Positions 10,046 through 38,774 of a DNA stretch of 64,000 nucleotides are shown here, piece after piece. The stretch comes from Minisyncoccota bacterium (GTDB taxonomy: Bacteria > Patescibacteriota > Minisyncoccia > Phycocordibacterales > UBA9973). The stretch spans positions 14,009-78,008 of the forward strand of contig DAONFW010000003.1 of assembly GCA_035403785.1 (NCBI GenBank), written 5' to 3'. The position numbers were made by a program, and so were the translations under genes. A model generated the notes under the pieces. It saw nothing but the letters and a program-made list of their open reading frames with translations. It was not told the DNA's origin and made no database searches. Position 1 is the first letter of the stretch, and every line of letters begins with the position of its first letter.

Positions 10046-10149
10046 CCCCTCCTTGATAAGGAGGGGGTTGGGGGGTGGTAATTCATAAATCACCACCTCG
10101 CCCTTCGGGCACTCCTCCTCCACAAGGAGGAGAGAAATTAATTTTATTT
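10046..10149 (-). repeat. Four-hairpin GC-rich structured element, copy B; on the minus strand it lies 13 nt 5' of the DUF559 gene and just 3' of the metG stop
   Basis: CCCCTCCTTGATAAGGAGGGGG, GGTGGTAATTCATAAATCACCACC, CGCCCTTCGGGC, CTCCTCCTCCACAAGGAGGAG then an A/T tail. Same order and spacing as copy A. Confidence 0.6.
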
Positions 10150-11592
10150 CCTCAAAAACAAAGGCGTCTCTGGTTTTTTATTTGATTTAATTAATTCTTG
10201 AATTTTTTTGGAAGTTTCGGGAAGAAGCACTTCTGTCAGCAAAGCTATTTCGTAAAGTTTCAAAATATTTTCTTTTATTAATTCTTTTCCTTTTTCTTCA
10301 TCTATTTTTATAACTTTAAACGGCTCAGTTTCTTGAATTCTTTTATCTAATTCTCCAATCTTATTCCAAACGAATTCTGCCGCTTTTTGAATTTCAAATT
10401 TTTCTAAATGTTCAAAAAATTCTTGAGATATTTTTATATCTTCAAAATTAATTTTTTCTGTCAGATATTTCTCAGACAAAGTTAAAATTCTCGAAGTTAA
10501 ATTTCCCAAACCATTCGCTAATCCAGAGTTATAAGCTTCTTTGAATCTCTCTACTGTGAACGGGCTATCTTCAAAACTTCCAACTTCACGCAATAAGAAA
10601 TATCTCAAAGCATCTGTGCCATATTCTTTCACAATTTCTGTTGGATCAACTACATTGCCCAAAGTCTTGGACATTTTCACGCCACCTTCGGCTGTGATAA
10701 AGCCGTTTATGACTATCTGCTTTGAATTCGGCACACCGGCAGCCATGAGCATCGCTTGCCACATTGCAGATTGAAAACGTAAATTATCTTTTCCACAATA
10801 CTGAACTGTCATGCCATTTTTCCAATATTTTTCAAAATCTCCAGATTCATCTGGCCAGCCAAGCGTAGAAATATAATTCACTAACGCATCGAACCAAACA
10901 TACATGACATGCTTCTCATCTCCCGGCACTGGAATTCCCCACGGCATTTTTTCTTTCAGTCTTGATATAGAAAAATCTTGCAAGCCACGATCAACGAAAG
11001 CTTTGATTTCATTAAATCTAAAATCTGGAATTACAAAACTAGGATTATTTTTATAAAAATCAGAAAGTTTTTTTGTAAATTCAGAATATTTGAAAAAATA
11101 ATTTTCTTCATCTATTATTTCTAACTTTCTGCCTGGATGATCTACGCACTCTCCTTCTTCATTTAATTCATGATCTTGTTTTTCACATTCACAACCAACG
11201 CAATATTTCGTCTGGTAATTTTTTTTGTAAATAAAACCATTCTGATCGCATCTTTTCCAAAATTCCTGCGCTGCTTCAATGTGCTTCTGATCAGTAGTTC
11301 TAGAAAAGTGTAAAATACTTTCATCCATGCCAAAAATTTTTACGGCTTCTTTAAATTTCTCAAAACTTTGATCAACAAATTCCTGTGGCGTTAAGTTTAA
11401 ACTTTTTGCTTTCTCAAAAATTTTCATTCCGTGCTCATCTGTGCCAGTATTAAAATAAACATCAAAACCCAAAAGCTTTTTGTAACGCGCAATTACATCT
11501 GCACGAATAAATTCGAGCGCATGCCCCATGTGAAGTTCTGCATTCACATACGGCAGAGTTGTAGTAATGTAAAAATTTTTATTATTGTTCAT
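10144..11592 (-). CDS. metG: Methionyl-tRNA synthetase (minimal form, no C-terminal tRNA-binding domain)
   Basis: HIGH-region HMGHALEF; KMSKTLGNVVDP; Cys-rich knuckle CVGCECE... Confidence 0.92.
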   Translation of the reverse strand: MNNNKNFYITTTLPYVNAELHMGHALEFIRADVIARYKKLLGFDVYFNTGTDEHGMKIFEKAKSLNLTPQEFVDQSFEKFKEAVKIFGMDESILHFSRTTDQKHIEAAQEFWKRCDQNGFIYKKNYQTKYCVGCECEKQDHELNEEGECVDHPGRKLEIIDEENYFFKYSEFTKKLSDFYKNNPSFVIPDFRFNEIKAFVDRGLQDFSISRLKEKMPWGIPVPGDEKHVMYVWFDALVNYISTLGWPDESGDFEKYWKNGMTVQYCGKDNLRFQSAMWQAMLMAAGVPNSKQIVINGFITAEGGVKMSKTLGNVVDPTEIVKEYGTDALRYFLLREVGSFEDSPFTVERFKEAYNSGLANGLGNLTSRILTLSEKYLTEKINFEDIKISQEFFEHLEKFEIQKAAEFVWNKIGELDKRIQETEPFKVIKIDEEKGKELIKENILKLYEIALLTEVLLPETSKKIQELIKSNKKPETPLFLRK

Positions 11593-14464: not shown

Positions 14465-15775
14465 TTAAATTCTATCTTTAATATAATTTTTTAAATCTTC
14501 TACTTTCACTCTCTCCTGATTTCCAGTATCTCGATCACGCACAGTTACTGTATTGTTTTCTAAAGTATCAAAATCAACAACAATACACCACGGCGTACCA
14601 ATCTCATCCTGTCTTCTATATCTTTTTCCAATGTTACCATTGTCATCCCAAATAATTCTTCCAAATTCTGCTTTCAGCGGCGCAAAAACTTTCGTATTAG
14701 CATATTCTACTAATTCTGGCTTGTTCTTGAGTAACGGTGAAACAGCACAAATCACCGGCGCAACATTCGGTTTTAACTTCAAATAAGCTCTAATTTCTCC
14801 ATCTTTCTCATCTTCTGTATAAGCAGAAAGCAAAACTGCAAGCAACGCTCTGTCTAAACCAAAAGATGGCTCGATAACATGCGGCACTATTTTTTCTTTA
14901 TTTTCTTCGTCAACATATTCAAGATTATGATTTGTCAAATCAAAATTTGTTCTGTAAGCCAAACCGAAAAGTTCTTTTTGACCAAACGGATATTCAAATT
15001 CAAAATCTGTTGTTCTTTTTGAATAATGCGCTAGGTCTTCTTTTGCAATATCAATATCGTGAACTTTTTTCATATCAATTCCAATTTCTTCAATCCATTC
15101 AGACATTTCATCTTTCCAATATTCAAAATATTTTTCCCAATCTGCTTCACGCACAAAATATTCTATTTCCATTTGTTCAAACTCTCTCTGTCTGAACAGA
15201 AAATCTCTTGGCGTGATTTCATTTCTAAAAGCTTTACCAATCTGCGCAATACCAAAAGGAAGTTTTGGATGAAACGCATCTACTGTATTTTTAAAATTAA
15301 CGAAAATTCCTTGCGCTGTTTCTGGACGAAGATATGAAGTAGCCGCAGAATCATCCGATGCGCCAACTTTTGTTTGGAACATCATGTTGAACTGCTTCGC
15401 TTCACTTAGTTTACCCTTATCACATTCTGCACATTTTTCTTTATCTTCTATTTGATCAGCTCGAAATCTTTTTTTACATTTATCACATTCAACCATCGGA
15501 TCAGCAAAATTTTCAACATGTCCTGCTTTCTGCCAGACTTCTTGTCGCATCAAAATAGCAGCATCTAGTCCGTACATATCACGTCTTGAATCAACAAATT
15601 TTTTCCACCAAGAACTTTTTATATTATTTTTTAGAGCCACTCCAAAATGTCCCCAATCCCATGTTCCAGCCAAACCGCCGTATATTTCAGATCCAGGAAA
15701 AATAAAACCACGTCTTTTACATAAAGACACTATTTTTTCCATTAATAAGTCATTTTTTTCTGCTTTATTTGCCAT
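14465..15775 (-). CDS. glyQS: Glycyl-tRNA synthetase, alpha2 (archaeal/eukaryote-like) type
   Basis: ...FIFPGSEIYGGLAGTWDWGHFG...; LRPETAQG motif-2 region; class II core. Confidence 0.9.
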   Translation of the reverse strand: MANKAEKNDLLMEKIVSLCKRRGFIFPGSEIYGGLAGTWDWGHFGVALKNNIKSSWWKKFVDSRRDMYGLDAAILMRQEVWQKAGHVENFADPMVECDKCKKRFRADQIEDKEKCAECDKGKLSEAKQFNMMFQTKVGASDDSAATSYLRPETAQGIFVNFKNTVDAFHPKLPFGIAQIGKAFRNEITPRDFLFRQREFEQMEIEYFVREADWEKYFEYWKDEMSEWIEEIGIDMKKVHDIDIAKEDLAHYSKRTTDFEFEYPFGQKELFGLAYRTNFDLTNHNLEYVDEENKEKIVPHVIEPSFGLDRALLAVLLSAYTEDEKDGEIRAYLKLKPNVAPVICAVSPLLKNKPELVEYANTKVFAPLKAEFGRIIWDDNGNIGKRYRRQDEIGTPWCIVVDFDTLENNTVTVRDRDTGNQERVKVEDLKNYIKDRI

Positions 15776-18379: not shown

Positions 18380-18994
18380 TTATTTTAGCACATTCTTAAT
18401 CACTTTTTCTAAATCTCTCGGATCGTCGATAATTGCAACTGGTTTTCCTTTTTCTAAATTTTTTCTCGGGTGAATTCCCCATGTTACACCAACAGACTTC
18501 ACGCCACACTCGTTTGCTTCCAAGATATCACCAAGCGAATCTGTTATAAAAACAACATCATCGAGTTTGAGATCATATTTTTTCAAAAGAGAATTTATTT
18601 TAATAACTTTACTTCTTTCAACATCAGCTCCCAAAATATCTGAAAAACATTCACGAACATTTTCTTTTTTTAAAAAATTATCTATTAAAAAACTATCTGT
18701 AGAAGAAACAACCGTAAGTAAATATTTTTCCGAAAGAATTTTTATTGTCTCATCAAGAATTTCGCTAACAGTAAGCTCTTTTAATTTTTCTCCATAAATA
18801 GCACTCCAATTTTCTGGTATTGTATGTGCACCATCTTCAACTGCCTTACAAAGACCATCGTGCCAATTACCATCACAAAAACTCTGGAATTTTTCAAAAG
18901 TTAAATCAGGATTTGATTTTTTGTGTCCATTAAAACAAAACTCTATTGTATTCACAAGCACCCCGTCAAAATCAAAAATCACTAATTTTTTCAT
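18380..18994 (-). CDS. HAD-superfamily hydrolase
   Basis: Motif I MKKLVIFDFDGVLVNT; HAD-like spacing of later motifs. Confidence 0.75.
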   Translation of the reverse strand: MKKLVIFDFDGVLVNTIEFCFNGHKKSNPDLTFEKFQSFCDGNWHDGLCKAVEDGAHTIPENWSAIYGEKLKELTVSEILDETIKILSEKYLLTVVSSTDSFLIDNFLKKENVRECFSDILGADVERSKVIKINSLLKKYDLKLDDVVFITDSLGDILEANECGVKSVGVTWGIHPRKNLEKGKPVAIIDDPRDLEKVIKNVLK

Positions 18995-19054: not shown

Positions 19055-19642
19055 CTATTTTAAGAAATCTTCAGGGTTATGCAATACTTTCCTAATTTTT
19101 CCTCGATTCTGTCTAGCAATCTTAGAAATAGTTGCAATTCCATCTGGGTTTTCTTTTGGTTCTTTTGATTTTTGTTTGTTAAGTGTTTTTAGATTATCTT
19201 TTGGAAAACGATTTGTTACTACTCTTTTCGGTACATTTATTTCTTCCGAACCATGAAATCCTTTTCTTCCATCATTCTTTATTTCTACAGGATGTGCGTT
19301 CTCTTCTTTTTCTCTTGTTGTGGTAGGAGCAGAATTAAAATATTTCAAAGGCTTCATCCTTCTACTCTTTGCTTTGAATTTTTTTTCTAAATCAGAATGA
19401 ATTTCTTCTTCCTTCAACTTTCTTTCCGGTTCTTCTATCGCGACTTCTTCCTGCATCATCTTTGGCAAATCTTCACCCACGTGCGCCGCACCGTCATGTC
19501 TATAATATTCAAGCTCCCCTGAACTTTCATTTTCTTTTCTTTCTTTTTTAACAAGAACATGCAAAAATTTCTTTCTTGGCTCAACTGATTTTTTCTCTAT
19601 TTCTTCTTTAGGACGTGGTCCTCTAAATATATTTCCAAACAT
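19055..19642 (-). CDS. Hypothetical highly charged (K/E-rich) protein co-transcribed downstream of ileS
   Basis: 195-aa ORF in an AT-rich genome, followed by a terminator; low complexity; no domain. Confidence 0.45.
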   Translation of the reverse strand: MFGNIFRGPRPKEEIEKKSVEPRKKFLHVLVKKERKENESSGELEYYRHDGAAHVGEDLPKMMQEEVAIEEPERKLKEEEIHSDLEKKFKAKSRRMKPLKYFNSAPTTTREKEENAHPVEIKNDGRKGFHGSEEINVPKRVVTNRFPKDNLKTLNKQKSKEPKENPDGIATISKIARQNRGKIRKVLHNPEDFLK

Positions 19643-19668: not shown

Positions 19669-22600
19669 TTATTTCTGAATAGCAATTTTAAAGCTCAAAT
19701 TATCTATCTTTATTTCTTCCCCAGAATTTTGCGCAAAATTTATCTCTCTTGCATTTACAGTCTTTAGCAGCTCATCTTTAAATTTATTCACAAGATTTTG
19801 CCCAGCCTGATCCGTCTCTATGTTTAGCACAACAACATCACTTGAAACTAATCCTGCTTTCTTTCGCATGTCCTGAATAGCACGAATTAATTCACGCAAA
19901 TTTCCTTCTTCTTTCAACTCAACTGATATTTCAGTATTCAACAAAACTTCTGTTTCAATATTTTTATCTTCTACAACTTCTCGCACATTTACTTCATCTT
20001 TTATCAATTCAGTATATTCAGAATTCAAATCATAATTTTTTACAGAAAGTTTACTCAACGGCTGTCTAACCGGAATTCCTGCTTTCTGTCTTGCCTGCAA
20101 ACCAAGCGTCACAGTTTCTCGCACTTTTTGCATTTCTGAAATTATCTTTTTGTCTTTTTTATTAAATAAACTTAATAACTTACTAAACATATTTCCAACT
20201 TTTGGCCAACTTGCAAGATGCACAGATTCTTCGTCACTTTCTGTCTTTAACTTCTGCCAAACATCCTCCGCAGCAAACGGCGCAAACGGCGCCATCAGTT
20301 TTGCAAGATTTTTTAAAACATAATACAAAGTCTGCTTTGCCTCGGTGTCTCCATCTTTAATTCTTTCTCGTGATCTTCGCAAATACCAAGTAGACAAATC
20401 ATCAATAAATTCTCTTATCGCACGTACTGGCTCAAGTAATTTATAATTATCTAGATTTTCTGTCATACTGCCAGACAACTGATTTAATCTCGCAACAATC
20501 CATTTATCTAGAACATTTTTTGAAGCAACATATTTCTGTTTCTCCAATTCTTTATCTCTGTATAACTCATAGAAAGTCAGCACGTTGTAAAGTAAATTAA
20601 ATACTTTGTTGTGCAACTCCATAACAGTTTTCTCGTCGAAATTTTTAGACTCACCTGGTTGATTCACTGCATACATCCAAAGTCTCAAAGTATCAACGCC
20701 GTATTTATCCATCATTTCCCATGGATCAACAATGTTACCCAAACTCTTAGACATTTTCTTTCCTTTTGCATCTAGCAAATGCCCCAAACAAATTACATTT
20801 TTGTAAGCCTTGCCTCTTCCCATCAAAGTTCCAACTGCGTGCAAAGTATAAAACCAGCCACGAGTTTGATCTATCGCTTCTGAAATAAAATCTGCTGGAT
20901 ATTTTAAATTTTTATTTTCAAACGGATAATGATCTTGCGAAAATGGCATCGTTCCAGAATCCAACCAAACATCCATAACTTCTTTTGTTCTCACCAATTT
21001 TCCGCCACAAGCTTGCCCGCCTTCGGCGTGGTCACAAACAAGTTCTACTTCATCAATATACGGCCTATGCAAATCTAATTCATAATTTTCATTGTGAGGT
21101 AGTGGCACAAAATCTAATTCTCTAATTTCTGCATTTTTTAAATAAGCAAAATTCTTTTCCAGCTCAACAATTTTTGACTTCTCGTATCCGCCTGAAAGTA
21201 AGAACAGGTCCATAATTGGATCACCATGAGACACAATCAAAATATTCTTATCTGAATATTTTGACTCAATGTCATATATAAAATTTCCCATTCGAACAAA
21301 AAGATCTCTTGGGGATTCTCCATTTGGAAACTTTGCTTCAAGATAATCAGCATGTGATCTAATAAAGTTATGAAAATCTTCTGTTGTTTTTCCTTCATAG
21401 TCCCCTGTGTTAAATTCAAGCAAGCGATCGTCAAAAGATATTTTATTTTTATCAAAGCCAACTACTTCACAAATGATTTCCGCTGTCCGCTTTGTTCTAG
21501 GAAGAGACGAACTAAAAACAAAATCGATTTTTTTGTCTTTAATTTTTTCTGCGCTTTCCCTCACCTGATTTTCGCCGATATCTGTAAGTTTATTTTCCGG
21601 ATCAAATTTATAGTTAGAAATACCTTTTATGTTGCTCAATGCTTGACCGTGCCTTGCTACAAAATACCTATTTCCAGATTTTTTTGCTTTCTTTTTCAAA
21701 TCTTCAATACTACCGATAACTTCTATTTTATTGCATTTATCACAATGCCAAACTGGAAGCGGCGAACCCCAATATCTTTCGCGAGAAATTGCCCAATCTT
21801 TTATTTCGCGTAGCCATTCTCCAAACCTTCCTTCTCGAATATGTTCTGGTTCCCAATTTATGCTTTTGTTCTCTTCTATCATTTTGTTTTTAATTTTTGG
21901 ATCAGACATTCTGATATACCAAGAATCTCGCGCGTAATAAATAAGCGCTGTTTTACATCTCCAACAATGCGGATAGCTGTGCTCGTACTTTTCTTTTTTA
22001 AATAATAAATTTCTGTGCGCTAAATCTTTTATCACATCGACAGCAACTTCCTCATCTCGCACAAATCTACCTTCGAGAAATCCCGTGCCAGGCAAAAACT
22101 TTCCGTCTAATCCAACAAGATGATGTTTTGGCAAACCAATTTCTGTTCCCAACATAAAGTCATCTTGTCCGTACATCACAGCTGTGTGCACAACTCCAGT
22201 TCCGTCTTCTGTCGTTACGAAATTTGCAGAATAAACTTTAAACGCTTTTTCTAAATTCTTATCTTTGCCTTCTATTTGCTCTTTCAAAAATGGATAAAGC
22301 GGCTCGTATTCCAAACCAATCAAATCTTTGCCTTTCATTTCTTCTAAAATTTCATACTCACCTTCTATCACAGCCAATCTTGTTTTCGCTAAAATCAAAA
22401 TACTATCTTCTTTTTTTATTTTTACGTAATCAATATTTTCTCCCACTGCAAGCGCTACGTTGCCCGGCAAAGTCCATGGCGTTGTTGTCCACGCAAGAAT
22501 AAAAGTGTTTTCTTGATCTTTAACTTTGAATTTCACATATACAGAAAGATCTTTCACATCTTCATATCCCTGTGCAAGTTCGTGAGAAGAAAGCGCTGTT

Positions 22601-23154
22601 CCACAACGTGGACACCACGGCACAACTTTGTAATCTTTGAACAACAAATTCTGATTGCTGGTTTCTTTTATAACATTCCAAACTGATTCTATGTAATTAT
22701 TGTGGTAAGTAACATAAGGATTTTCTTGATCAACCCAAAAGCCGATTCTTTCTGTAAATTTATTCCAATATTCTAAATATTTCCAAACAGATTTTTTACA
22801 TTCTGTGTTAAATTTCGCAATGCCGTATTCTTCTATATCTTTCTTAGAAGTTAAACCCAACTGTTTCTCTACTTGTAGCTCAACTGGCAAACCATGCGTA
22901 TCCCAACCTCCTTTTCTGCGAACGTGATATCCTCGCATTGTTTTGTATCTTGGAATAGCATCCTTGAAAGCACGCGCTTCCAAATGGTGAATTCCAGGCT
23001 TTCCGTTTGCCGTCGGAGGACCTTCGAAAAATACAAATTCTCCCTTTGGGGATTTTTTGTTTAAACTTTTTTCAAAAATTTTATTTTCTTTCCAAAATTG
23101 TAAAACAGCTTCTTCTCGCAATGCTGATTGTGATTTTTTATTTTGTTCTGACAT
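19669..23154 (-). CDS. ileS: Isoleucyl-tRNA synthetase with an inserted histidine-phosphatase (PGAM-like) domain
   Basis: PPTANGKPGIHHLEA (HIGH), TTPWTLP (CP1 editing), KMSKSLGN. Between PVWHCDKCNKIEVIGS and DLHRPYIDEV lies a roughly 200-aa insert with RHGQ...SHGDPI motifs. Confidence 0.93.
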   Translation of the reverse strand: MSEQNKKSQSALREEAVLQFWKENKIFEKSLNKKSPKGEFVFFEGPPTANGKPGIHHLEARAFKDAIPRYKTMRGYHVRRKGGWDTHGLPVELQVEKQLGLTSKKDIEEYGIAKFNTECKKSVWKYLEYWNKFTERIGFWVDQENPYVTYHNNYIESVWNVIKETSNQNLLFKDYKVVPWCPRCGTALSSHELAQGYEDVKDLSVYVKFKVKDQENTFILAWTTTPWTLPGNVALAVGENIDYVKIKKEDSILILAKTRLAVIEGEYEILEEMKGKDLIGLEYEPLYPFLKEQIEGKDKNLEKAFKVYSANFVTTEDGTGVVHTAVMYGQDDFMLGTEIGLPKHHLVGLDGKFLPGTGFLEGRFVRDEEVAVDVIKDLAHRNLLFKKEKYEHSYPHCWRCKTALIYYARDSWYIRMSDPKIKNKMIEENKSINWEPEHIREGRFGEWLREIKDWAISRERYWGSPLPVWHCDKCNKIEVIGSIEDLKKKAKKSGNRYFVARHGQALSNIKGISNYKFDPENKLTDIGENQVRESAEKIKDKKIDFVFSSSLPRTKRTAEIICEVVGFDKNKISFDDRLLEFNTGDYEGKTTEDFHNFIRSHADYLEAKFPNGESPRDLFVRMGNFIYDIESKYSDKNILIVSHGDPIMDLFLLSGGYEKSKIVELEKNFAYLKNAEIRELDFVPLPHNENYELDLHRPYIDEVELVCDHAEGGQACGGKLVRTKEVMDVWLDSGTMPFSQDHYPFENKNLKYPADFISEAIDQTRGWFYTLHAVGTLMGRGKAYKNVICLGHLLDAKGKKMSKSLGNIVDPWEMMDKYGVDTLRLWMYAVNQPGESKNFDEKTVMELHNKVFNLLYNVLTFYELYRDKELEKQKYVASKNVLDKWIVARLNQLSGSMTENLDNYKLLEPVRAIREFIDDLSTWYLRRSRERIKDGDTEAKQTLYYVLKNLAKLMAPFAPFAAEDVWQKLKTESDEESVHLASWPKVGNMFSKLLSLFNKKDKKIISEMQKVRETVTLGLQARQKAGIPVRQPLSKLSVKNYDLNSEYTELIKDEVNVREVVEDKNIETEVLLNTEISVELKEEGNLRELIRAIQDMRKKAGLVSSDVVVLNIETDQAGQNLVNKFKDELLKTVNAREINFAQNSGEEIKIDNLSFKIAIQK

Positions 23155-23697: not shown

Positions 23698-24462
23698 CTA
23701 TCGAACACAATGAATATATCCATTAGTACCAGATTTACCACCAAGAAAGACACCACCATTATACATAGCAACATTGTAAGCATTACCAGCACCACCTGGG
23801 AGAGCACTATCTGACCAATACTCAGAAGGCTGAAACTCCTCTGGCGTACCACCAATAATATTATTTTCTTGATAATGATTAAATAATTCCTTTACTGTGG
23901 GTAATCTCCATGTTCCTGGAATTTGACCCTCGGCAGTAGAACCAGCACAAGCAGCTTTAGCTGCATACCATGTCGTGTAAATATCTATTGGCGTTCTAAT
24001 CCCTCCAACACAAGCACTTCCTGTCCAAGTACAACTGTTTGCCCCACAAATAGTTTCTAAATCAACTGGTTGAGTTAAATCAGCTGCTAAATATTCACAT
24101 TGATAAGTAGTTTCATCAGCAGAAGCGAAAGTAGGTGCTACTGGAGCTCCTGTTGCCGTCCCCGGCACCCCAAAAATAGTAGTTCCTGTAAGTATTTTAC
24201 TTCCATCAATAGCAGATATTTTATTAGTTAATAAATCATAAATACTTTCAATAGAATTCATAGATGAAGCGATTGTTCCTGGAGTAGTAAAGTTAGTAGA
24301 TGGAATATTATCTCCAGTGTTTACTAATTCATACAAATCAGAAAGTGATTTCATTGTTTTAGCTGGTGCTCCTGGTGGAGTAAGACTTCCTGCATAAGTT
24401 ACAGTCACTCCCACTAACACAGCTATCACTAGATACGGAACGATTTTTAATATTTTTTTCAT
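23698..24462 (-). CDS. Secreted protein with C-terminal DUF1566 (Lcl-like) domain
   Basis: Signal peptide MKKILKIVPYLVIAVLVGVTVTYA; the C-terminus ...TWRLPTVKELFNHY...EYWSDS...GYIHCVR matches the DUF1566 W-x-LPT...CVR signature. Confidence 0.6.
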   Translation of the reverse strand: MKKILKIVPYLVIAVLVGVTVTYAGSLTPPGAPAKTMKSLSDLYELVNTGDNIPSTNFTTPGTIASSMNSIESIYDLLTNKISAIDGSKILTGTTIFGVPGTATGAPVAPTFASADETTYQCEYLAADLTQPVDLETICGANSCTWTGSACVGGIRTPIDIYTTWYAAKAACAGSTAEGQIPGTWRLPTVKELFNHYQENNIIGGTPEEFQPSEYWSDSALPGGAGNAYNVAMYNGGVFLGGKSGTNGYIHCVR

Positions 24463-24499: not shown

Positions 24500-25321
24500 T
24501 TACTTTCCACACGAATTATTAATAGCAGCTTTGGTGTACTGACCTACAATACCGTCTATTACTAGAAGTGGTGTTGGTTTTAGATAGGTATTCAAGGCTG
24601 TTTGTAATCTTTGCACTCCTTGTTTCGTTAAAGGACCAAAGATACCATCTACTGGACCAGCTGCTTGGTTGTAGGAAGAAGCTAGGATTCTGTTGATGTG
24701 TGCCTGAAGTATTTTTACTTGAGTGACTGTTCCTTTGTTGTAAGTACTATATATACCGTTACGGGTTCCTACTTTAAGATTATCTGTTAATGTTTGTTCG
24801 CTGGAACAAGGACCGCTGTTTAGAATGTTTGAGGTTGTGGGAGAGGTTGGTACTTCTGTAGTTACAGAAGGTTTGTATCCTAATGCATATGATCCAGAAG
24901 AAGTGTGATGAGTTCTAGTACTTGCTGGTCTCCAGTCTGTTATGACTTTGTTATCTGTGGTTCCAAAAGTTATCCAACCGATGTTTTCACCATAAGCTCC
25001 TCCGGTGAAGATACCATCTGTTCCAATAGTAACTGGTGAGAAGTCTATCCAACCAATGTTTTCGCCCCAAGCATAACCGGAAAGATTTCCTTCTTTATCA
25101 TTAGTGATAGTAGAAAGATCTATCCAACCAATGTTTTCGCCATATACTGAATTACTTAAAGTGGTATCAGTGACAGTGATTTTAGAAAAGTCTACCCAAC
25201 CTATGTTTTCACCCCAAGCGTAACCAGTTACAGTTCCATTGGTAGTAGAAGCGAGAGTAGGAGTAGAGATTATTAGAAACGAAAACAGAAATATTGTTAG
25301 TAATATTAATTTATTTTTCAT
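24500..25321 (-). CDS. Secreted protein with four tandem Trp-rich repeats (GYAWGENIGWIDFS) and a C-terminal peptidoglycan-binding domain
   Basis: Signal peptide, repeats GYAWGENIGWVDFS / YGENIGWIDLS / GYAWGENIGWIDFS / AYGENIGWITFG, and the C-terminus LQAHINRILASSYNQAAGPVDGIFGPLTKQGVQRLQ (PG_binding_1-like). Confidence 0.65.
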   Translation of the reverse strand: MKNKLILLTIFLFSFLIISTPTLASTTNGTVTGYAWGENIGWVDFSKITVTDTTLSNSVYGENIGWIDLSTITNDKEGNLSGYAWGENIGWIDFSPVTIGTDGIFTGGAYGENIGWITFGTTDNKVITDWRPASTRTHHTSSGSYALGYKPSVTTEVPTSPTTSNILNSGPCSSEQTLTDNLKVGTRNGIYSTYNKGTVTQVKILQAHINRILASSYNQAAGPVDGIFGPLTKQGVQRLQTALNTYLKPTPLLVIDGIVGQYTKAAINNSCGK

Positions 25322-25443: not shown

Positions 25444-27180
25444 TTACATTCTTTCCGGAATTTTTATTCCAAGAAGCCACAGACCGTTTTGCATAGTCTG
25501 ATAAAATGCTTTTACTAGATCAAGTTGAAAATCTGCAAATTTATTTTCTGTATCTAAAATATGATTATTGCCATAGAAAGAATTAAAAGCACTTGCAAGT
25601 TCTGTTAAGTAAGTAGTAATCAGATGCGGTGCGAATTCTTGATGTGCTCTTTCTACTACTTCTGGGAACTGATAAATAATCTTTTCTAAATGTGTAATTT
25701 CTTCTGGAATTTCTTTTTCTTTTTCTAAGGTTTCATTTTTAAAATCTTTCGCTTTTTCTAAAATAGAACTTGCACGAACTGCTGTGTATTGCAAATATGG
25801 ACCAGAGTCACCTTCGAAAGAAATAGACTTTTCAAAATCATAAATAATATCTGAACCTAAGGACGGACGCAAAATAGAATATTTCAAAGCAGCGACACCG
25901 ACAGATTTTGCAATTTCTCTTTTTTCTTGATCAGAAAAGTCTCTTTCTCGAACTTTTTCCAAAACAACATCCATAGAATCTTGCAATAAAGACTCGCCAG
26001 TTATTACATTTCCTTTTCGTGAAGACATTTTTCCTGAAGCCAATCGCATCATACCGTGAGTTACATGTTTCATTCTTGATTCTAACTCTGGATTAATTAA
26101 AGAAATCGCTTTCTGCACAACTTTCATATATTCAGCCTGTTCAACTGCAGTTGTCACGATAGATACATCTAATTTTTTGCTAAATATATTTTTTTTAAAT
26201 TTAGTTAAAGTTAAGCCTAACTCTTTAGTTTCATAAGTCGGCAAATCTTTTGAATTAATAAAAACTCTTGTATGTAATTTTGGATCATACTTTTCAGCGT
26301 GAAAAACAACAGCGCCTTCTGATTCTTCAAAAACTTTGCCAATATTATTTTTCACTATTTCTTTCCCAATCGGTGCCACCTCACTTTCAAAATAATATTT
26401 ATCAAATTTTGTTCCCAAAGTTTTATAAATTTCTTCAAAAGCTTCGAGTGTAATTTTTCTTCCCCAATCATAAGTTACGTTTATTTTTTCATCACTTCTG
26501 TCATAAACTTTTCTGTTTATTTCATCTATTTCTTTTTTTGCTTCTTCGTCAGTTTCATAAAGCTCATTTCCTTTCGCATACAGCTCGCCAATATACTGCG
26601 CTTTGGCTGTAATAGATTCATATTCTTCTGGCATGCCGAATTTTAATAAAGCATAAATAGCCTTCGCAACATGTGGCCCAACGTCGCCTTGATAATTCGC
26701 TCGCACAGTTTTTGCTCCAGAAAATTCTACTATTCGCGAAATAGATTCACCAATAGCATTGCTCATAAGATGTCCAATATGAAATGGCTTGAACGGATTC
26801 GGCTGAGTGTATTCAACCATTACTTTCTTGCCTGCTAAATTTCTATTCTTTCCCCAATTTTCTTTTTGTTTCAAAATTTCATCTACTTGCTCAACAAAAA
26901 ATCCTCGAGACAAATAAAAATTTATAAATCCTGGTCCAGCAACTGCAATATCTTCAATAAAAGTTTTTTCTTCTGCCAACAAATCTTCTTTCATTTTTTC
27001 TACAATTCTTTCTGCTAACTCTTTTGGATTCACGCCCATCTTTTTTGCGCAAACCATCGCAACGTTTGTAGAATAATCGCCGTTATCAAAAATTTCAGGA
27101 TGCTCAACATTAAAACTCTCAACTTTGATTTCTAATTTTTCTAAAGTTTCTTTTATTAAATTTTTTATTCTATTTTTCAT
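25444..27180 (-). CDS. argS: Arginyl-tRNA synthetase
   Basis: HIGH-like PFKPFHIGHLMSNAIGES; class I ArgRS architecture; the C-terminus ends ...ERM. Confidence 0.9.
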   Translation of the reverse strand: MKNRIKNLIKETLEKLEIKVESFNVEHPEIFDNGDYSTNVAMVCAKKMGVNPKELAERIVEKMKEDLLAEEKTFIEDIAVAGPGFINFYLSRGFFVEQVDEILKQKENWGKNRNLAGKKVMVEYTQPNPFKPFHIGHLMSNAIGESISRIVEFSGAKTVRANYQGDVGPHVAKAIYALLKFGMPEEYESITAKAQYIGELYAKGNELYETDEEAKKEIDEINRKVYDRSDEKINVTYDWGRKITLEAFEEIYKTLGTKFDKYYFESEVAPIGKEIVKNNIGKVFEESEGAVVFHAEKYDPKLHTRVFINSKDLPTYETKELGLTLTKFKKNIFSKKLDVSIVTTAVEQAEYMKVVQKAISLINPELESRMKHVTHGMMRLASGKMSSRKGNVITGESLLQDSMDVVLEKVRERDFSDQEKREIAKSVGVAALKYSILRPSLGSDIIYDFEKSISFEGDSGPYLQYTAVRASSILEKAKDFKNETLEKEKEIPEEITHLEKIIYQFPEVVERAHQEFAPHLITTYLTELASAFNSFYGNNHILDTENKFADFQLDLVKAFYQTMQNGLWLLGIKIPERM

Positions 27181-36458: not shown

Positions 36459-36860
36459 ATGCACCAAGAAGAAAATTGCATTTTTTGCAAAATAATTAAA
36501 AAAGAAATTCCTTGCGATTTAATTTATGAAAACAATAAATTTTTTGTTTTTTTAGATATAAATCCAGTATCACATGGGCACATTTTGATTATTCCCAAAA
36601 AACATATAGTCTGGATGCAAGAAGCAGATGATAAAACGATATCTGACATTTTCAAACTGACAAAAAAAATAATGCTCGCCATGAAAAAAGGAATGATGTG
36701 TGATTATGTACAGATCAGCGTGAACGGTGAAGAGGTTCCACATTTTCATATTCATGTAATTCCAAGATATTTTGATGATAATCTACCACAATTTCCAAGA
36801 AAGAAATACCAAGAAGGTGAACCTTCTGAATTAGTTAAAAGACTCACTCAAGCATTGTAA
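36459..36860 (+). CDS. HIT-family (histidine triad) protein
   Basis: HFHIHVIP histidine triad; preceded by a TGTTATTAT -10 five nt upstream of the ATG (leaderless). Confidence 0.85.
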   Translation: MHQEENCIFCKIIKKEIPCDLIYENNKFFVFLDINPVSHGHILIIPKKHIVWMQEADDKTISDIFKLTKKIMLAMKKGMMCDYVQISVNGEEVPHFHIHVIPRYFDDNLPQFPRKKYQEGEPSELVKRLTQAL

Positions 36861-36921: not shown

Positions 36922-37977
36922 TTATTTTAGCACTTTAATTCCCGGCAGCGTGCCATTTGCGAGAAAATCCAAAGTTGCACCACCGCCAGTAGAGACAAAA
37001 GAAAGTTTCTTTTCTATCTTCATTCTTGAGACAACAGAAACGATATCTCCCCCGCCGATTATACTTTCTGCTTTTGAACAAGCTACAAATTTTAGTAATT
37101 TTTTAGTTGCAAGATCTCCAGATTTTTCTTCATATTTTCCCAACGGTCCATTCCAGAGAATTAGTTTAGATTTTTTAATATAATTTTCTGCTAACTTTAT
37201 AGACTCTTTACCAACATCTATGATTATTTCATTCTTCTTCACATCTGAAATCTTTTTATTTATTATTTTATTTCCAGACAAGATAGCAACATCAACCGGC
37301 AAAATTATCTTTTTATTATTTAAAATATTTGCTGGAATTTTAGTATTATCAGTCAAGGATTTGCCTATCTCATATTTTTTGGCTTTCAAAAAATCATTCA
37401 ACAACGCGCCACCGATAAAAATATAGTCAGCTGTTTTCAAATATTTCTTGATAAGCGGCATTTTAGTAGAAAATTTTGCGCCACCTAAAATAAATAAAAA
37501 CGGATGTTTTGGATTCTTTATGACTTTAGATAAATTTTTTATTTCTTCTTCCAACTGCAAACCTGCGTAACTTGGCAAATATTTTGGTACACCGACAACA
37601 GAAGCATGCTTCCTGTGTGAAACAGAAAAAGCATCGTTTACATAAATATCAGCAATACCTGCAACTTTTTTTGCAAAGCTCAGATCATTTTTTTCTTCTT
37701 CTGGATATTGCCTAATATTTTCTAGTAAAATTATATCTTTCTTCACATATTTTTTTAATCTTTCAGCAACAGGAGCCAAACTTTCTGTGCCATCTTTTCC
37801 TAAATGAGAAATCAAAATAACTTCTGCACCCTTTTTCTGTAAAAATTCTATTGTCGGTATTGATTTTTTTATTCTAAAATCATCTATTATTTTGCCATTT
37901 TTTATAGGCACATTAAAATCAACACGAACTAAAACTTTTTTACCTTTTATGTTTTTTAAATTTTTAACAGATTTCAT
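36922..37977 (-). CDS. pgk: Phosphoglycerate kinase (short form)
   Basis: ...KVLVRVDFNVP... N-terminal PGK signature. Confidence 0.9.
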   Translation of the reverse strand: MKSVKNLKNIKGKKVLVRVDFNVPIKNGKIIDDFRIKKSIPTIEFLQKKGAEVILISHLGKDGTESLAPVAERLKKYVKKDIILLENIRQYPEEEKNDLSFAKKVAGIADIYVNDAFSVSHRKHASVVGVPKYLPSYAGLQLEEEIKNLSKVIKNPKHPFLFILGGAKFSTKMPLIKKYLKTADYIFIGGALLNDFLKAKKYEIGKSLTDNTKIPANILNNKKIILPVDVAILSGNKIINKKISDVKKNEIIIDVGKESIKLAENYIKKSKLILWNGPLGKYEEKSGDLATKKLLKFVACSKAESIIGGGDIVSVVSRMKIEKKLSFVSTGGGATLDFLANGTLPGIKVLK

Positions 37978-37994
37978 CTTTTTGTTTTTTATTT

Positions 37995-38774
37995 TTATTT
38001 TTCAGAAATATTTTCAGTCAAATTAATAATTTCACCAAATTTAATTGGATCCAAACTAGCTCTGCCAACCAAAAATCCATCGGCTTGGCCCACTTTGATA
38101 AAAGCTTCAATGTTTTTAGGATTCACAGAACCACCATAAATTATTTTAACTTTGCTTGCTTCTTGTGCACCGAATTTATCGCTCAAAACTTTTTTTATAA
38201 AAATACTAATTTCCAAAAATTCTTCAGCCGTAGCTTCTCGTACTGCATTTTTACCGATAGCCCACACTGGCTCATAGGCGACAATAATTTTCCCAATAGA
38301 AGTTTTCAATATATTTTTAAAACCAAGTTCTATCTGTTCTTTTACAAAATTTAGATATTCGTTATTTTCAGATCTTTCTTTTTCACCAATACAAACAATT
38401 GGCGTTAGTCCTACTGACAAACCAGCTTTTATTTTTTTGTTCACATCTTCATTTGTTTCTCCAAAAATAGTTCTTCTCTCTGAGTGCCCCAAAATCACAT
38501 ATTTTGCTCCGGTATCATAAAGCATTTCCGCTGAAATTTCTCCAGTATAGGCGCCTGATTCTTCATAAAAAATATTTTCTCCGCCTAATTTTATCTTTTT
38601 TGCTAAATTTTTTAACTTGGCCAGATAAACACATGGAGAACAAATCACAACTTCAGTCTTTTTTAAACCAAAAAAAGTTTTATTTATGTTTTTAAATAAT
38701 TTTTCAGCTTCTTTAAAAGAAACGGGATTCATTTTCCAGTTCGCTATAACGATTTTTTTAGACATTTTAGACAT
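37995..38774 (-). CDS. tpiA: Triosephosphate isomerase
   Basis: IANWKMN, GHSERR, IAYEPVWAIG motifs. Confidence 0.92.
   Translation of the reverse strand: MSKMSKKIVIANWKMNPVSFKEAEKLFKNINKTFFGLKKTEVVICSPCVYLAKLKNLAKKIKLGGENIFYEESGAYTGEISAEMLYDTGAKYVILGHSERRTIFGETNEDVNKKIKAGLSVGLTPIVCIGEKERSENNEYLNFVKEQIELGFKNILKTSIGKIIVAYEPVWAIGKNAVREATAEEFLEISIFIKKVLSDKFGAQEASKVKIIYGGSVNPKNIEAFIKVGQADGFLVGRASLDPIKFGEIINLTENISEK

What the first reader, a model, noticed from the sequence alone, without database searches (positions are those of the whole stretch)
21087..21690. Histidine-phosphatase (phosphoglycerate-mutase-like) domain inserted inside isoleucyl-tRNA synthetase
The 1161-aa IleRS has all class I landmarks: HIGH, the CP1 editing motif TTPWTLP, and KMSKS. 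In type-2 IleRS the segment between the conserved ...WAISRERYWGSPLPVWHC... and ...DLHRPYIDEV...DVWLDSG blocks is about 35 aa. Here it is about 200 aa (about aa 490-690). That segment carries the catalytic signatures of the histidine phosphatase superfamily: RHG near its N-terminus (FVARHGQALSN) and a downstream SHG (ILIVSHGDPI).

It is not intein-like; I see no Cys/Ser...His-Asn splice motifs. An aaRS carrying an in-frame PGAM-like catalytic domain is unusual. It could couple aminoacylation or editing to a phosphatase activity, or it could be a degenerate decoration.
Basis: partly seen in the sequence, partly recalled or inferred. Interest (0 to 1): 0.7.

Follow-up and report, generated by a model that had tools for sequence, protein, structure and literature searches.

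The report
Active phosphatase domain nested inside IleRS
The isoleucyl-tRNA synthetase of this tiny-genome (Paceibacteria/CPR) bacterium really does carry a complete, apparently active histidine-phosphatase enzyme spliced into the middle of its catalytic body, a design conserved in hundreds of species, echoed independently in valyl-tRNA synthetases of other CPR lineages, and not found in the papers I could search.

Summary
Observation confirmed. Window 19669-23154 (-) is one uninterrupted 1161-aa ORF, a type-2 IleRS (TIGR00392, 867 bits). Residues 492-689 (window 21088-21681) replace 3 residues of P. megaterium IleRS2. They form a His_Phos_1 domain (PF00300, E 2.6e-31) that models as an autonomous domain (pLDDT 91.6).

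It is not an artefact, an intein or a decayed decoration:
- All 120 closest homologues carry the insert, as do at least 523 GTDB species (Nomura-, Kaiser-, Adler-, Zambryski-, Vogel-, Campbellbacteria).
- R501, H502, N508, R553, E580, R621 and H643 are invariant, although the rest of the domain drifts.

The domain resembles the small phosphatases PspA, CobC and PhoE, not true phosphoglycerate mutases.

ValRS of Gracilibacteria/Peregrinibacteria carries 1-4 such domains in the homologous loop. Another IleRS lineage carries them at two other sites. A few TsaC proteins have one fused.

Best reading: a second, autonomous phosphomonoesterase active site tethered to class Ia synthetases, acting in trans. 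The substrate is unknown; a nucleotide- or tRNA-linked one is inferred.

I found no paper describing this. Verdict: new variant of a known kind; interest about 0.65.

The parts
19669..23154 (-). ileS: 1161-aa type-2 isoleucyl-tRNA synthetase with a nested phosphatase domain (end coordinate includes the stop codon)
   Evidence: ORF. TIGR00392 scores 867 bits against a cut-off of 621. Pfam finds tRNA-synt_1, Anticodon_1, DUF5915 and His_Phos_1. The best solved relative is P. megaterium IleRS2 8c8w, E 3.5e-246.
22984..22995 (-). G54-I-H-H57: non-canonical GXHH form of the class I HIGH signature
   Evidence: Translation. In the family, H56 is 120/120 and H57 is 117/120. Motif counts: GIHH in 112 of 120. 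The GXHH meaning comes from PMC10485003.
22465..22485 (-). TTPWTLP, the CP1 editing-domain motif
   Evidence: T223-L229 are invariant in 60 homologues.
21733..21744 (-). C471-x2-C474, first half of the Zn-knuckle hairpin that hosts the insert
   Evidence: C471 and C474 are 120/120. Many other Paceibacteria have lost these Cys residues but keep the insert.
21670..21684 (-). N-side junction KKSGN (aa 491-495), a strongly conserved anchor
   Evidence: S5, G6, N7, Y9 and F10 are invariant in alignment A2. N495 is 78/78 in GTDB species.
21088..21681 (-). Inserted segment aa 492-689, a complete His_Phos_1 domain. The Pfam core is aa 498-651 (window 21202-21663).
   Evidence: Pfam E 2.6e-31. Boundaries from the alignment to 8c8w. 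AF2 model of the insert has pLDDT 91.6 and pTM 0.90. Within the full-length model the insert scores pLDDT about 82-96 per 10-residue block, mostly above 90. Foldseek top hits are PspA, HFP, CobC, TIGAR, GpgP and PhoE, TM 0.70-0.76.
21646..21654 (-). R501-H502-G503: the RHG motif, with the predicted phosphohistidine nucleophile H502
   Evidence: 120/120; 78/78 GTDB species.
21496..21498 (-). R553, second phosphate-binding arginine (S..R...T motif)
   Evidence: 120/120; 78/78.
21415..21417 (-). E580, predicted general acid/base (L.E...G..EG motif)
   Evidence: Invariant in 60 sequences; 78/78.
21226..21228 (-). H643, second catalytic histidine (the SHG motif)
   Evidence: 120/120; 78/78.
21079..21105 (-). 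C-side junction PLPHNENYE (aa 684-692), which rejoins the native IleRS loop just before DLHRPY
   Evidence: H687 is 78/78 and P686 is 75/78.
21007..21036 (-). C707-x8-C716, second half of the Zn knuckle. This gene has an 8-residue spacer where most relatives have C-x-C.
20953..20973 (-). DVWLDSG, the start of the second half of the catalytic (HUP/Rossmann) core
   Evidence: Core ranges for PmIleRS2 (second half from residue 513) are quoted.
20743..20757 (-). KMSKS signature
   Evidence: invariant.

Best explanation
The gene encodes the housekeeping type-2 IleRS of a Paceibacteria (CPR) bacterium. A complete histidine-phosphatase domain of about 190 aa (His_Phos_1, PspA/CobC/PhoE-like) is nested at the tip of the Zn-knuckle hairpin of the connective-peptide region, about 35 residues before the DVWLDSG element that opens the second half of the catalytic core.

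SHOWN:
- The domain's identity, boundaries and autonomous fold.
- An intact IleRS around it: GXHH, KMSKS, the CP1 editing motif and the anticodon-binding domains.
- Strict invariance of the whole catalytic set in several hundred sequences.
- One ancient insertion shared by Paceibacteria orders, in both HYGH-type and GXHH-type IleRS2.
- The same kind of domain nested separately in ValRS (1-4 copies) and at other positions in another IleRS lineage.

INFERRED:
- The module is an active phosphomonoesterase using the canonical mechanism of its superfamily. H502 attacks the phosphate to form a phosphohistidine. R501, R553 and H643 hold the phosphoryl group. E580 acts as acid/base. Water then releases phosphate.
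- It works as a second, autonomous active site that travels with the synthetase. It is not a channel to the synthetic site, because insertion position and copy number differ between lineages while the host class recurs (class Ia aaRS, and occasionally the adenylate-forming TsaC).
- I therefore commit to this: it acts in trans on a phosphomonoester met at adenylate-forming tRNA enzymes. That would be a nucleotide-type substrate (a nucleoside 5'- or 3'-monophosphate-like compound, as for CobC) or a phosphorylated tRNA end. It is not a glycolytic intermediate.

Rough probabilities: real nested domain 0.98; catalytically active 0.8; functionally tied to the host's tRNA/nucleotide chemistry about 0.4.
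For: Identity and boundaries.

Autonomous fold: the insert model has pLDDT 91.6 and pTM 0.90. The insert stays at pLDDT about 82-96 per 10-residue block (mostly above 90) inside the full-length model. Its fold neighbours are small phosphatases.

Selection on catalysis:
- R501, H502, G503, N508, R553, R621 and H643 are 120/120, and E613 is 119/120.
- E580 is invariant in 60 sequences.
- All of these are 78/78 in GTDB species that are only 39-50% identical in the insert.
- Mean column conservation of the insert is 0.55, against 0.84 for the N-terminal IleRS part.

The linkers are the same in HYGH-type and GXHH-type IleRS2, and in members that have lost the Zn cysteines.

Recurrence:
- 71 of 120 ValRS near P0121 (Gracilibacteria/Peregrinibacteria) carry 1-4 copies between WCISRQ.WWG and DTWFSS, the homologous loop. 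Some carry a copy at a second site upstream.
- Copies within one ValRS are 28-37% identical to each other, but most are 36-84% (one 28%) identical to their nearest copy in another protein. They are therefore old, separately maintained paralogues.
- IleRS P0230/P0274, on a 1.06-Mb contig, has copies at two other sites and none at this site.
- ValRS copies are nearest to other ValRS copies. IleRS copies are nearer to short His_Phos proteins (about 43%) than to ValRS copies (about 31%), which points to separate captures.
- TsaC-His_Phos fusions occur in 4 clusters.

Phosphatase rather than mutase: in the profile search against the PDB, PspA scores 81 bits, CobC 73 and PhoE 73, against 47 bits over the N-terminal half only for true dPGMs. 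The NCBIfam dPGM models are far below their cut-offs.
Against: - No substrate evidence of any kind. Every NCBIfam equivalog (CobC, PspA, dPGM_arch, RNase H/acid phosphatase) is below its cut-off.
- Host specificity may be partly an ascertainment effect. Only the best 150 of 1230 representative hits (E<1e-10) were seen, and the search started from the IleRS insert.
- In the best-studied analogue (mycobacterial RnhC/MSMEG_4305, RNase HI + CobC-like phosphatase), the two domains are reported to be functionally dissociated in vivo.
- Patescibacterial TsaC is fused to many unrelated enzymes (MGMT, TruB, 2H phosphoesterase, NUDIX, GNAT), so fusion itself is common in this group.
- Some ValRS copies have lost H643 (8 of 73) or E580.
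Confidence: 0.45

Rival explanations
1. Piggy-back housekeeping phosphatase. The domain is an ordinary small-molecule phosphatase (housecleaning or biosynthetic, PhoE/PspA/CobC-like) with no functional link to aminoacylation. It sits in a permissive surface hairpin of an essential, constitutively expressed gene and is kept only because its own activity is needed.
For: - Its closest characterised relatives are small-molecule phosphatases.
- Variable sites and copy numbers show that no fixed geometry relative to the synthetic site is needed.
- Precedent: the domains of MSMEG_4305 are functionally dissociated.
- Fusions are rife in Patescibacteria. TsaC is joined to MGMT, TruB, NUDIX, 2H phosphoesterase and GNAT.
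Against: - Among the best 150 representatives, the recognisable multi-domain proteins (many are truncated fragments) were IleRS (about 90) apart from one ValRS, one TsaC fusion and one AlkB-like fusion.
- Insertion into class Ia synthetases happened repeatedly, at five or more sites in at least three lineages.
- The junction peptides are nearly invariant, whereas the linker of MSMEG_4305 is described as highly variable.
Confidence: 0.3
2. Hidden glycolytic enzyme. The nested domain is the cell's phosphoglycerate mutase, which would explain why PGM is reported missing in some Parcubacteria.
For: - Jaffe et al. [quoted passage not shown]
- The window encodes TIM and PGK, so central glycolysis is present.
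- The domain belongs to the PGAM superfamily. It has weak matches to the archaeal dPGM model and to S. pombe PGM.
Against: - Profile ranking puts phosphatases well above true mutases, which align only over the N-terminal half.
- dPGM_arch scores 72 bits against a cut-off of 225.
- The sequence after E580 follows the phosphatase pattern (L.E...G..EG), not the mutase ERHYG...K pattern. This is read from the sequence and from my own knowledge of the family.
- A complete Gracilibacteria genome is reported to lack glycolysis altogether, yet Gracilibacteria-type ValRS carries up to 4 copies.
Confidence: 0.07
3. Non-catalytic module. The domain serves as an oligomerisation, scaffold or ligand-sensing element (for a phosphorylated metabolite or the tRNA 5'-phosphate) without turnover.
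For: - Many His_Phos proteins are dimers (own knowledge).
- Multiple copies could build assemblies.
- A few ValRS copies lack H643 or E580.
Against: In the IleRS family, the nucleophile, both arginines, the acid/base Glu and the second His are all invariant across hundreds of divergent sequences, while the surface residues drift. This is the signature of retained catalysis.
Confidence: 0.08
4. Artefact or mobile element. The segment is a frameshift or assembly chimera, or an intein-like selfish insert that is removed from the mature protein.
For: The C-side junction contains H687-N688, which superficially resembles the His-Asn at an intein's C-terminus.
Against: - One open frame.
- The identical protein is on 5 contigs, and the architecture is in at least 523 species.
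- No Hint/intein family was among the Pfam matches listed for the full protein or the insert at E<=0.01.
- The residue after HN is Glu, not Cys/Ser/Thr, and the segment starts with Lys/Ser-Gly-Asn, not a splice nucleophile in an intein context.
- The fold is His_Phos.
- There are no flanking repeats and no composition shift.
Confidence: 0.01

Closest known systems
Bacterial type-2 IleRS (IleRS2), e.g. Priestia megaterium IleRS2 (PDB 8c8u/8c8w) and T. thermophilus IleRS (1ile)
   Same: It aligns end to end, apart from the insert (E 3.5e-246). It has the KMSKS motif, the CP1 editing motif and the type-2 C-terminal domains. The GXHH variant of the HIGH motif is exactly the form engineered in 8c8w.
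   Different: About 198 residues stand where PmIleRS2 has 3. No solved or described IleRS that I found carries a catalytic domain at this position.
Small His_Phos_1 phosphatases: H. thermophilus phosphoserine phosphatase PspA (4ij5), CobC alpha-ribazole phosphatase (6nru, 6e4b), B. stearothermophilus PhoE (1h2e), HFP (9mmh), GpgP (4pz9), TIGAR
   Same: The same compact fold of about 200 aa (TM 0.70-0.76), the same catalytic residues, and the best profile scores at 63-81 bits.
   Different: Those are free-standing enzymes with known substrates. This domain is only 20-25% identical to them, falls below every NCBIfam equivalog cut-off, and is nested inside another enzyme.
Mycobacterial RnhC / Rv2228c / MSMEG_4305 (bifunctional RNase HI + CobC-like acid phosphatase, NCBIfam NF005567)
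   Same: A His_Phos phosphatase joined to a nucleic-acid enzyme. It is the second-best NCBIfam match of the insert, at 77 bits over model positions 176-356.
   Different: That is an end-to-end fusion with a variable linker, and its domains are reported to be functionally independent. Here the domain is nested inside the catalytic body with near-invariant junctions. The score is far below the cut-off (326).
IleRS with an embedded N-acetyltransferase domain (NCBIfam NF040702, ileS_w_GNAT)
   Same: A curated precedent for an IleRS that carries an unrelated enzyme domain.
   Different: A different domain (GNAT). This protein scores 326 bits against a cut-off of 1999. I did not examine where the GNAT sits.
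ValRS of Gracilibacteria/Peregrinibacteria with 1-4 nested His_Phos domains (found here, not described in papers I could search)
   Same: The same domain family, in the homologous loop of the sister class Ia enzyme, with catalytic residues mostly kept.
   Different: A separate clade of copies, about 31% identical to the IleRS copies. It has tandem arrays and a second site upstream, and occurs in a different CPR lineage.

Membership tests
Isoleucyl-tRNA synthetase, type 2 (IleRS2) | Score above the curated equivalog cut-off for ileS | tested here: met
   TIGR00392 scores 867.1 bits against a cut-off of 621.4, matched in two stretches around the insert.
Isoleucyl-tRNA synthetase, type 2 (IleRS2) | Class I signatures: HIGH-type motif and KMSKS | tested here: met
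   KMSKS at aa 800-804. The HIGH motif is present as the documented IleRS2-only variant G/AXHH (GIHH, aa 54-57).
Isoleucyl-tRNA synthetase, type 2 (IleRS2) | CP1 editing domain and type-2 C-terminal anticodon-recognition domains | tested here: met
   TTPWTLP and GTGVVH motifs are present. Pfam finds Anticodon_1 (aa 883-1034) and DUF5915 (aa 1039-1161). The protein aligns to PmIleRS2 up to residue 1020.
Isoleucyl-tRNA synthetase, type 2 (IleRS2) | Charges tRNA-Ile with isoleucine | not testable with these tools
   Needs an enzyme assay. Strong conservation of the synthetase parts (0.84 mean column conservation) suggests it is the working enzyme.
Histidine phosphatase superfamily, branch 1 (Pfam PF00300) | Profile score above the gathering threshold | tested here: met
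   109.2 bits against a threshold of 21.7, E 2.6e-31, covering profile positions 2-156 of 194.
Histidine phosphatase superfamily, branch 1 (Pfam PF00300) | Catalytic core: RHG histidine nucleophile, two arginines, acid/base glutamate, second histidine | tested here: met
   R501, H502, R553, E580 and H643 are all present. They are invariant in alignments of 60 and 78 sequences, and all except E580, which was not tabulated there, are 120/120 in the full homologue set.
Histidine phosphatase superfamily, branch 1 (Pfam PF00300) | The alpha/beta fold of the superfamily | tested here: met
   The AF2 model has pLDDT 91.6. Foldseek probability is 1.00 and TM is 0.70-0.76 to PspA, HFP, CobC and PhoE.
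Histidine phosphatase superfamily, branch 1 (Pfam PF00300) | Phosphoryl-transfer activity via phosphohistidine | not testable with these tools
   Needs biochemistry.
Cofactor-dependent phosphoglycerate mutase (dPGM) | Equivalog-level score and full-length match to mutase models or structures | tested here: not met
   dPGM_arch scores 72-73 bits against a cut-off of 225, and the other gpmA models score 20-43 bits against cut-offs of 305-378. In the profile search against the PDB, true dPGMs score 47 bits or less, over the N-terminal half only.
Alpha-ribazole phosphatase CobC / phosphoserine phosphatase PspA | Equivalog cut-off | tested here: not met
   TIGR03162 scores 78.7 against a cut-off of 162.9. 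NF045917 scores 68.3 against a cut-off of 350. These are the nearest relatives, but membership is not shown.
Intein | Hint fold and splice-junction residues (Cys/Ser at the start, His-Asn followed by Cys/Ser/Thr) | tested here: not met
   No Hint/intein family was among the listed Pfam matches. The fold is His_Phos. H687-N688 is followed by Glu.

The most novel reading that the evidence does not exclude
Active histidine phosphatases have been recruited repeatedly and independently into the catalytic body of class Ia synthetases: IleRS in Paceibacteria, ValRS in Gracilibacteria/Peregrinibacteria, and other sites in another IleRS lineage. This could reveal a so far unrecognised phosphatase-dependent step of tRNA charging or quality control in CPR bacteria. 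Examples would be removing a blocking phosphate or pyrophosphate from the tRNA 3' end, reversing an inhibitory phosphorylation of the synthetase, or destroying a nucleotide by-product or inhibitor at the synthetic site.
Probability: 0.25. Interest if true: 0.85.

Novelty: new variant of a known kind. Interest (0 to 1): 0.65.

Why it matters
- **New design.** Aminoacyl-tRNA synthetases are among the most conserved enzymes known. New catalytic domains inside their core are rare and have usually pointed to new biology, such as editing domains or appended signalling domains in eukaryotes. Here an intact second enzyme has been carried inside IleRS by a whole bacterial class for a very long time, and the sister enzyme ValRS arrived at the same design separately.
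- **Testable prediction.** Something phosphorylated matters at, or alongside, these synthetases in CPR bacteria. These organisms cannot yet be grown alone, and their biochemistry is largely inferred from annotation.
- **Annotation.** NCBI names these proteins only 'class I tRNA ligase family protein'. Domain-blind metabolic reconstructions will not count the PGAM-superfamily enzyme hidden inside them.
- **Antibiotic target.** The GXHH motif suggests these IleRS enzymes are intrinsically insensitive to mupirocin-like inhibitors.

Tried and rejected
1. **Assembly join, frameshift or recent mobile insertion: rejected.** The frame is open, composition is uniform, the only repeats are chance AT-rich ones, and the architecture is present in hundreds of species.
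2. **Intein: rejected**.
3. **Link between the insert and the GXHH motif: rejected.** 26 of 78 GTDB members with the same insert have the canonical HYGH motif.
4. **Dependence on the Zn knuckle: rejected.** Many members have lost the cysteines but keep the insert and its junctions.
5. **Anti-phage defence link:** no PADLOC match for the insert or its neighbours.
6. **Other copies in the window:** none. MetRS, ArgRS and a class II synthetase in the same window have no insert.
7. **Local pyrophosphate removal:** considered, because IleRS, ValRS and TsaC all release PPi. I ranked it low. PPi is not a typical substrate of this family (own knowledge), only one or two of the synthetases carry the domain, and the window encodes a membrane H+-pyrophosphatase that uses PPi.
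8. **'Free-standing' close relatives:** several turned out to be gene fragments on tiny contigs (P0140). One true free-standing relative (P0163) sat on a 1.5-kb contig with no informative neighbours.
9. **Inter-domain geometry from the full-length AF2 model:** not usable. pTM is 0.57, the Rossmann core is low-confidence with this shallow alignment, and no coordinates are returned.
10. **Fold search against AFDB to survey other hosts:** the library was not available.
11. **Literature:** five searches for aaRS plus histidine phosphatase / PGAM / CPR insertion found nothing relevant. Two recent IleRS evolution papers do not mention it.
Full report
**1. What is in the sequence**

Window 19669-23154 (minus strand) is one uninterrupted ORF of 1161 aa.
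- Pfam finds the class I synthetase catalytic family split in two. His_Phos_1 (PF00300) lies between the halves at aa 498-651, followed by Anticodon_1 and DUF5915.
- The flagged segment alone (21087-21690) scores 109 bits, E 2.6e-31, against a gathering score of 21.7.
- NCBIfam calls the protein ileS (TIGR00392, 867 bits, cut-off 621).
- Against solved structures the best match is Priestia megaterium IleRS2 (8c8w, E 3.5e-246). Query 1-491 pairs with Pm 1-479, and query 690-1135 with Pm 483-924. About 198 residues (aa 492-689, window 21088-21681) therefore replace three.
- All motif coordinates were checked by translation.
- GC content is uniform across the insert. There are no meaningful flanking repeats.

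**2.

- The HIGH signature is not canonical. It reads G54-I-H-H57.
- This first/third-position swap (G/AXHH) is described only in IleRS2. It confers mupirocin hyper-resistance with little loss of activity (PMC10485003).
- GIHH is present in 112 of the 120 closest homologues.

**3. Where the insert sits**

- It lies between the two halves of a four-cysteine knuckle: C471-x2-C474 ... [insert] ... C707-x8-C716. This is after the WAISRERYWG.PLPVW block and about 35 residues before DVWLDSG.
- By the domain ranges given for PmIleRS2, the second half of the HUP core starts at residue 513. The insertion point is Pm 479-483. That places the insert in the connective-peptide region just ahead of the second half of the catalytic core.
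- The junction peptides are nearly invariant: KKSGN.YF on the N side and PLPHNENYE on the C side.

**4. It is a real, autonomous, conserved enzyme domain**

- The insert alone models with pLDDT 91.6 and pTM 0.90.
- Inside the full-length model it keeps pLDDT about 82-96 per 10-residue block, mostly above 90. The synthetase core is poorly modelled with my shallow alignment (pTM 0.57).
- Foldseek places it among compact phosphatases of about 200 aa: PspA, HFP, CobC, TIGAR, Rv3214, GpgP and PhoE (TM 0.70-0.76).
- A profile of the family ranks PspA (81 bits), CobC (73) and PhoE (73) well above true phosphoglycerate mutases (47 bits or less, N-terminal half only).
- Every NCBIfam equivalog is below its cut-off, including CobC, PspA, archaeal dPGM and RNase H/acid phosphatase.
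- The catalytic set is invariant:
  - In the 120 closest homologues, R501, H502, G503, N508, R553, R621 and H643 are 120/120, and E613 is 119/120.
  - E580 is invariant in a 60-sequence alignment.
  - All are 78/78 in GTDB species whose inserts are only 39-50% identical to this one.
- Yet the domain as a whole is much less conserved than the synthetase: 0.55 against 0.84 mean column conservation.

This is the pattern of retained catalysis, not of a decaying decoration.

**5. Distribution**

- All 120 best homologues (65-100% identity) carry PF00300. Their source names are Paceibacterota, Nomurabacteria, Minisyncoccia and Pacebacteria.
These include Kaiser-, Adler-, Zambryski-, Vogel- and Nomurabacteria. 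Campbellbacteria appear.
- Many records are labelled 'uncultured Candidatus Saccharibacteria'. These come from bulk submissions, and I do not rely on the label.
- The same insert with the same junctions occurs in HYGH-type and GXHH-type IleRS2, and in members that have lost the knuckle cysteines.

I read this as one ancient insertion in the class.

**6. The wider pattern**

A whole-library search with the insert gave 1230 representatives at E<1e-10. About 90 of the best 150 are IleRS with the insert at this site. Three kinds of exception are informative.

- **(a) ValRS.**
  - P0121 is a ValRS with four His_Phos domains.
  - Of the 120 ValRS nearest to it (names: Gracilibacteria, Peregrinibacteria), 71 carry 1-3 full-length copies between WCISRQ.WWG and DTWFSS. 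This is the loop homologous to the IleRS site. Some also carry a copy about 40 residues upstream.
  - ValRS of a Nomurabacterium has none (P0380).
  - Copies within one ValRS are 28-37% identical to each other, but most are 36-84% (one 28%) identical to their nearest copy in another protein. The arrays are therefore old and maintained.
- **(b) Another IleRS lineage.**
  - P0230/P0274 is a 1419-aa IleRS2 on a 1.06-Mb contig.
  - It has no insert at this site. It has one after the DSG..PY loop and one before the anticodon-binding domain.
  - P0197 combines three sites.
- **(c) TsaC.**
  - Four clusters of patescibacterial TsaC (Sua5/YrdC) carry a C-terminal His_Phos.
  - TsaC in this group is fused to many different enzymes.

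Copy-against-copy comparison shows that ValRS copies are nearest to other ValRS copies. IleRS copies are nearer to short His_Phos proteins (about 43%) than to ValRS copies (about 31%). This points to separate captures. Some of those short proteins are gene fragments.

**7. How it most likely works**

*Shown:* two complete catalytic units in one polypeptide.

*Inferred from the superfamily's established mechanism:* H502 forms a phosphohistidine. R501, R553 and H643 bind the phosphoryl group. E580 is the acid/base.

Position and copy number vary between lineages, while the host class recurs. I therefore infer an autonomous site acting in trans, not a channel to the synthetic pocket. I also infer a substrate connected with adenylate-forming tRNA enzymes, either nucleotide-type or a phosphorylated tRNA end. 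My confidence in this last step is only about 0.4.

The main rival is a phosphatase with an unrelated housekeeping role that merely rides in a permissive hairpin (0.3).
- For it: the mycobacterial RNase HI/CobC-like protein, whose domains are functionally dissociated, and the frequency of fusions in Patescibacteria.
- Against it: the repeated choice of class Ia synthetases and the invariant junctions.

A hidden phosphoglycerate mutase is attractive because PGM is reported missing in some Parcubacteria, and TIM and PGK are in this window. However, the domain is phosphatase-like. In addition, a complete Gracilibacteria genome is reported to lack glycolysis altogether, yet Gracilibacteria-type ValRS has up to four copies.

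Local PPi removal is unlikely. Only IleRS among the four synthetases in this window has the domain, and the window encodes an H+-pyrophosphatase.

**8. Novelty**

- The proteins are in public databases under generic names.
- I found no paper on a histidine phosphatase inside any aaRS. Two recent IleRS evolution papers do not mention it. The searchable library is incomplete, so this is absence of evidence only.
- NCBIfam does curate an IleRS with a GNAT domain, so the general kind (IleRS plus a foreign enzyme domain) is known.

I rate it a new variant of a known kind. It is of real interest to synthetase and CPR specialists because of its age, its breadth, the strict catalytic conservation and the convergent ValRS case.

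**9. Limits**

- No coordinates were available to measure inter-site geometry.
- There is no genome-level presence/absence test.
- Only the top of each hit list could be inspected.
- There is no biochemistry.

Noticed in passing
window 22984-22995 (-): The class I HIGH signature of this IleRS is GIHH. This is the non-canonical G/AXHH form reported to give IleRS2 mupirocin hyper-resistance. It is present in 112 of the 120 closest homologues, but 26 of 78 more distant Paceibacteria IleRS with the same insert keep the canonical HYGH.
   Followed up: yes
window 21007-21036 (-): The second half of the Zn knuckle is C-x8-C (CDHAEGGQAC) here, where most relatives have C-x-C. Many Paceibacteria have lost all four cysteines while keeping the insert.
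   Followed up: partly
window 10144-11592 (-), 14465-15775 (-), 25444-27180 (-): Three more synthetase genes lie near ileS: a short 482-aa MetRS, a class II enzyme (tRNA-synt_2b + HGTP_anticodon) and ArgRS. None of them contains a His_Phos domain.
   Followed up: partly
window 49448-51445 (+): A membrane H+-translocating pyrophosphatase (H_PPase, 897 bits). The organism can use PPi for ion pumping, which bears on any idea that the IleRS insert removes PPi.
   Followed up: partly
window 36922-38774 (-) and 36459-36860 (+): Adjacent TIM and PGK genes, so central glycolysis is present, plus a HIT-family nucleotide hydrolase gene next to them. No phosphoglycerate mutase was seen in the 64 kb.
   Followed up: partly
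window 18380-18994 (-) and 19055-19642 (-): Directly downstream of ileS is a Lys/Glu-rich 195-aa ORF with no family match. It is followed by a HAD-superfamily hydrolase, which is another phosphatase-type enzyme.
   Followed up: no
window 24500-25321 (-) and 23698-24462 (-): Two probable secreted or surface proteins upstream of ileS. One has several 'GENIGW(I/V)(D/T)F' repeats plus a peptidoglycan-binding domain. The other has an Lcl C-terminal domain.
   Followed up: no
proteins P0121, P0276-P0393 (ValRS of Gracilibacteria/Peregrinibacteria-type CPR): 71 of 120 ValRS carry 1-4 His_Phos domains in the loop homologous to the IleRS site, and some carry one at a second site upstream. Other oddities: P0299 also has a DUF559/REase-like insert, P0308 has an HU-like DNA-binding domain at its C-terminus, and P0322 and P0367 have about 200 extra residues of unknown nature.
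   Followed up: partly
L001 10001-14260 (P0274) and P0197: An IleRS2 with canonical HYGH, on a 1.06-Mb contig. It has two His_Phos domains at different sites: after the DSG..PY loop and before the anticodon-binding domain. It has none at the Paceibacteria site. Its neighbours include POR, adenylosuccinate synthase, DAHP synthase and an SLH protein. The lineage was not identified.
   Followed up: partly
L084 977-2140 (P0156) and proteins P0395-P0511: In Patescibacteria, TsaC (threonylcarbamoyl-AMP synthase) is a promiscuous fusion partner. Most often it is fused to an MGMT-type DNA-binding domain. Other partners are TruB, 2H phosphoesterase, NUDIX, GNAT and methylpurine glycosylase. In four clusters the partner is His_Phos.
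   Followed up: partly
L085 6001-7251 (P0216): A His_Phos domain fused to a weak AlkB-like 2OG-Fe(II) oxygenase match. The contig's neighbours (LRR, mitochondrial-carrier-like) suggest a eukaryotic or giant-virus origin.
   Followed up: no
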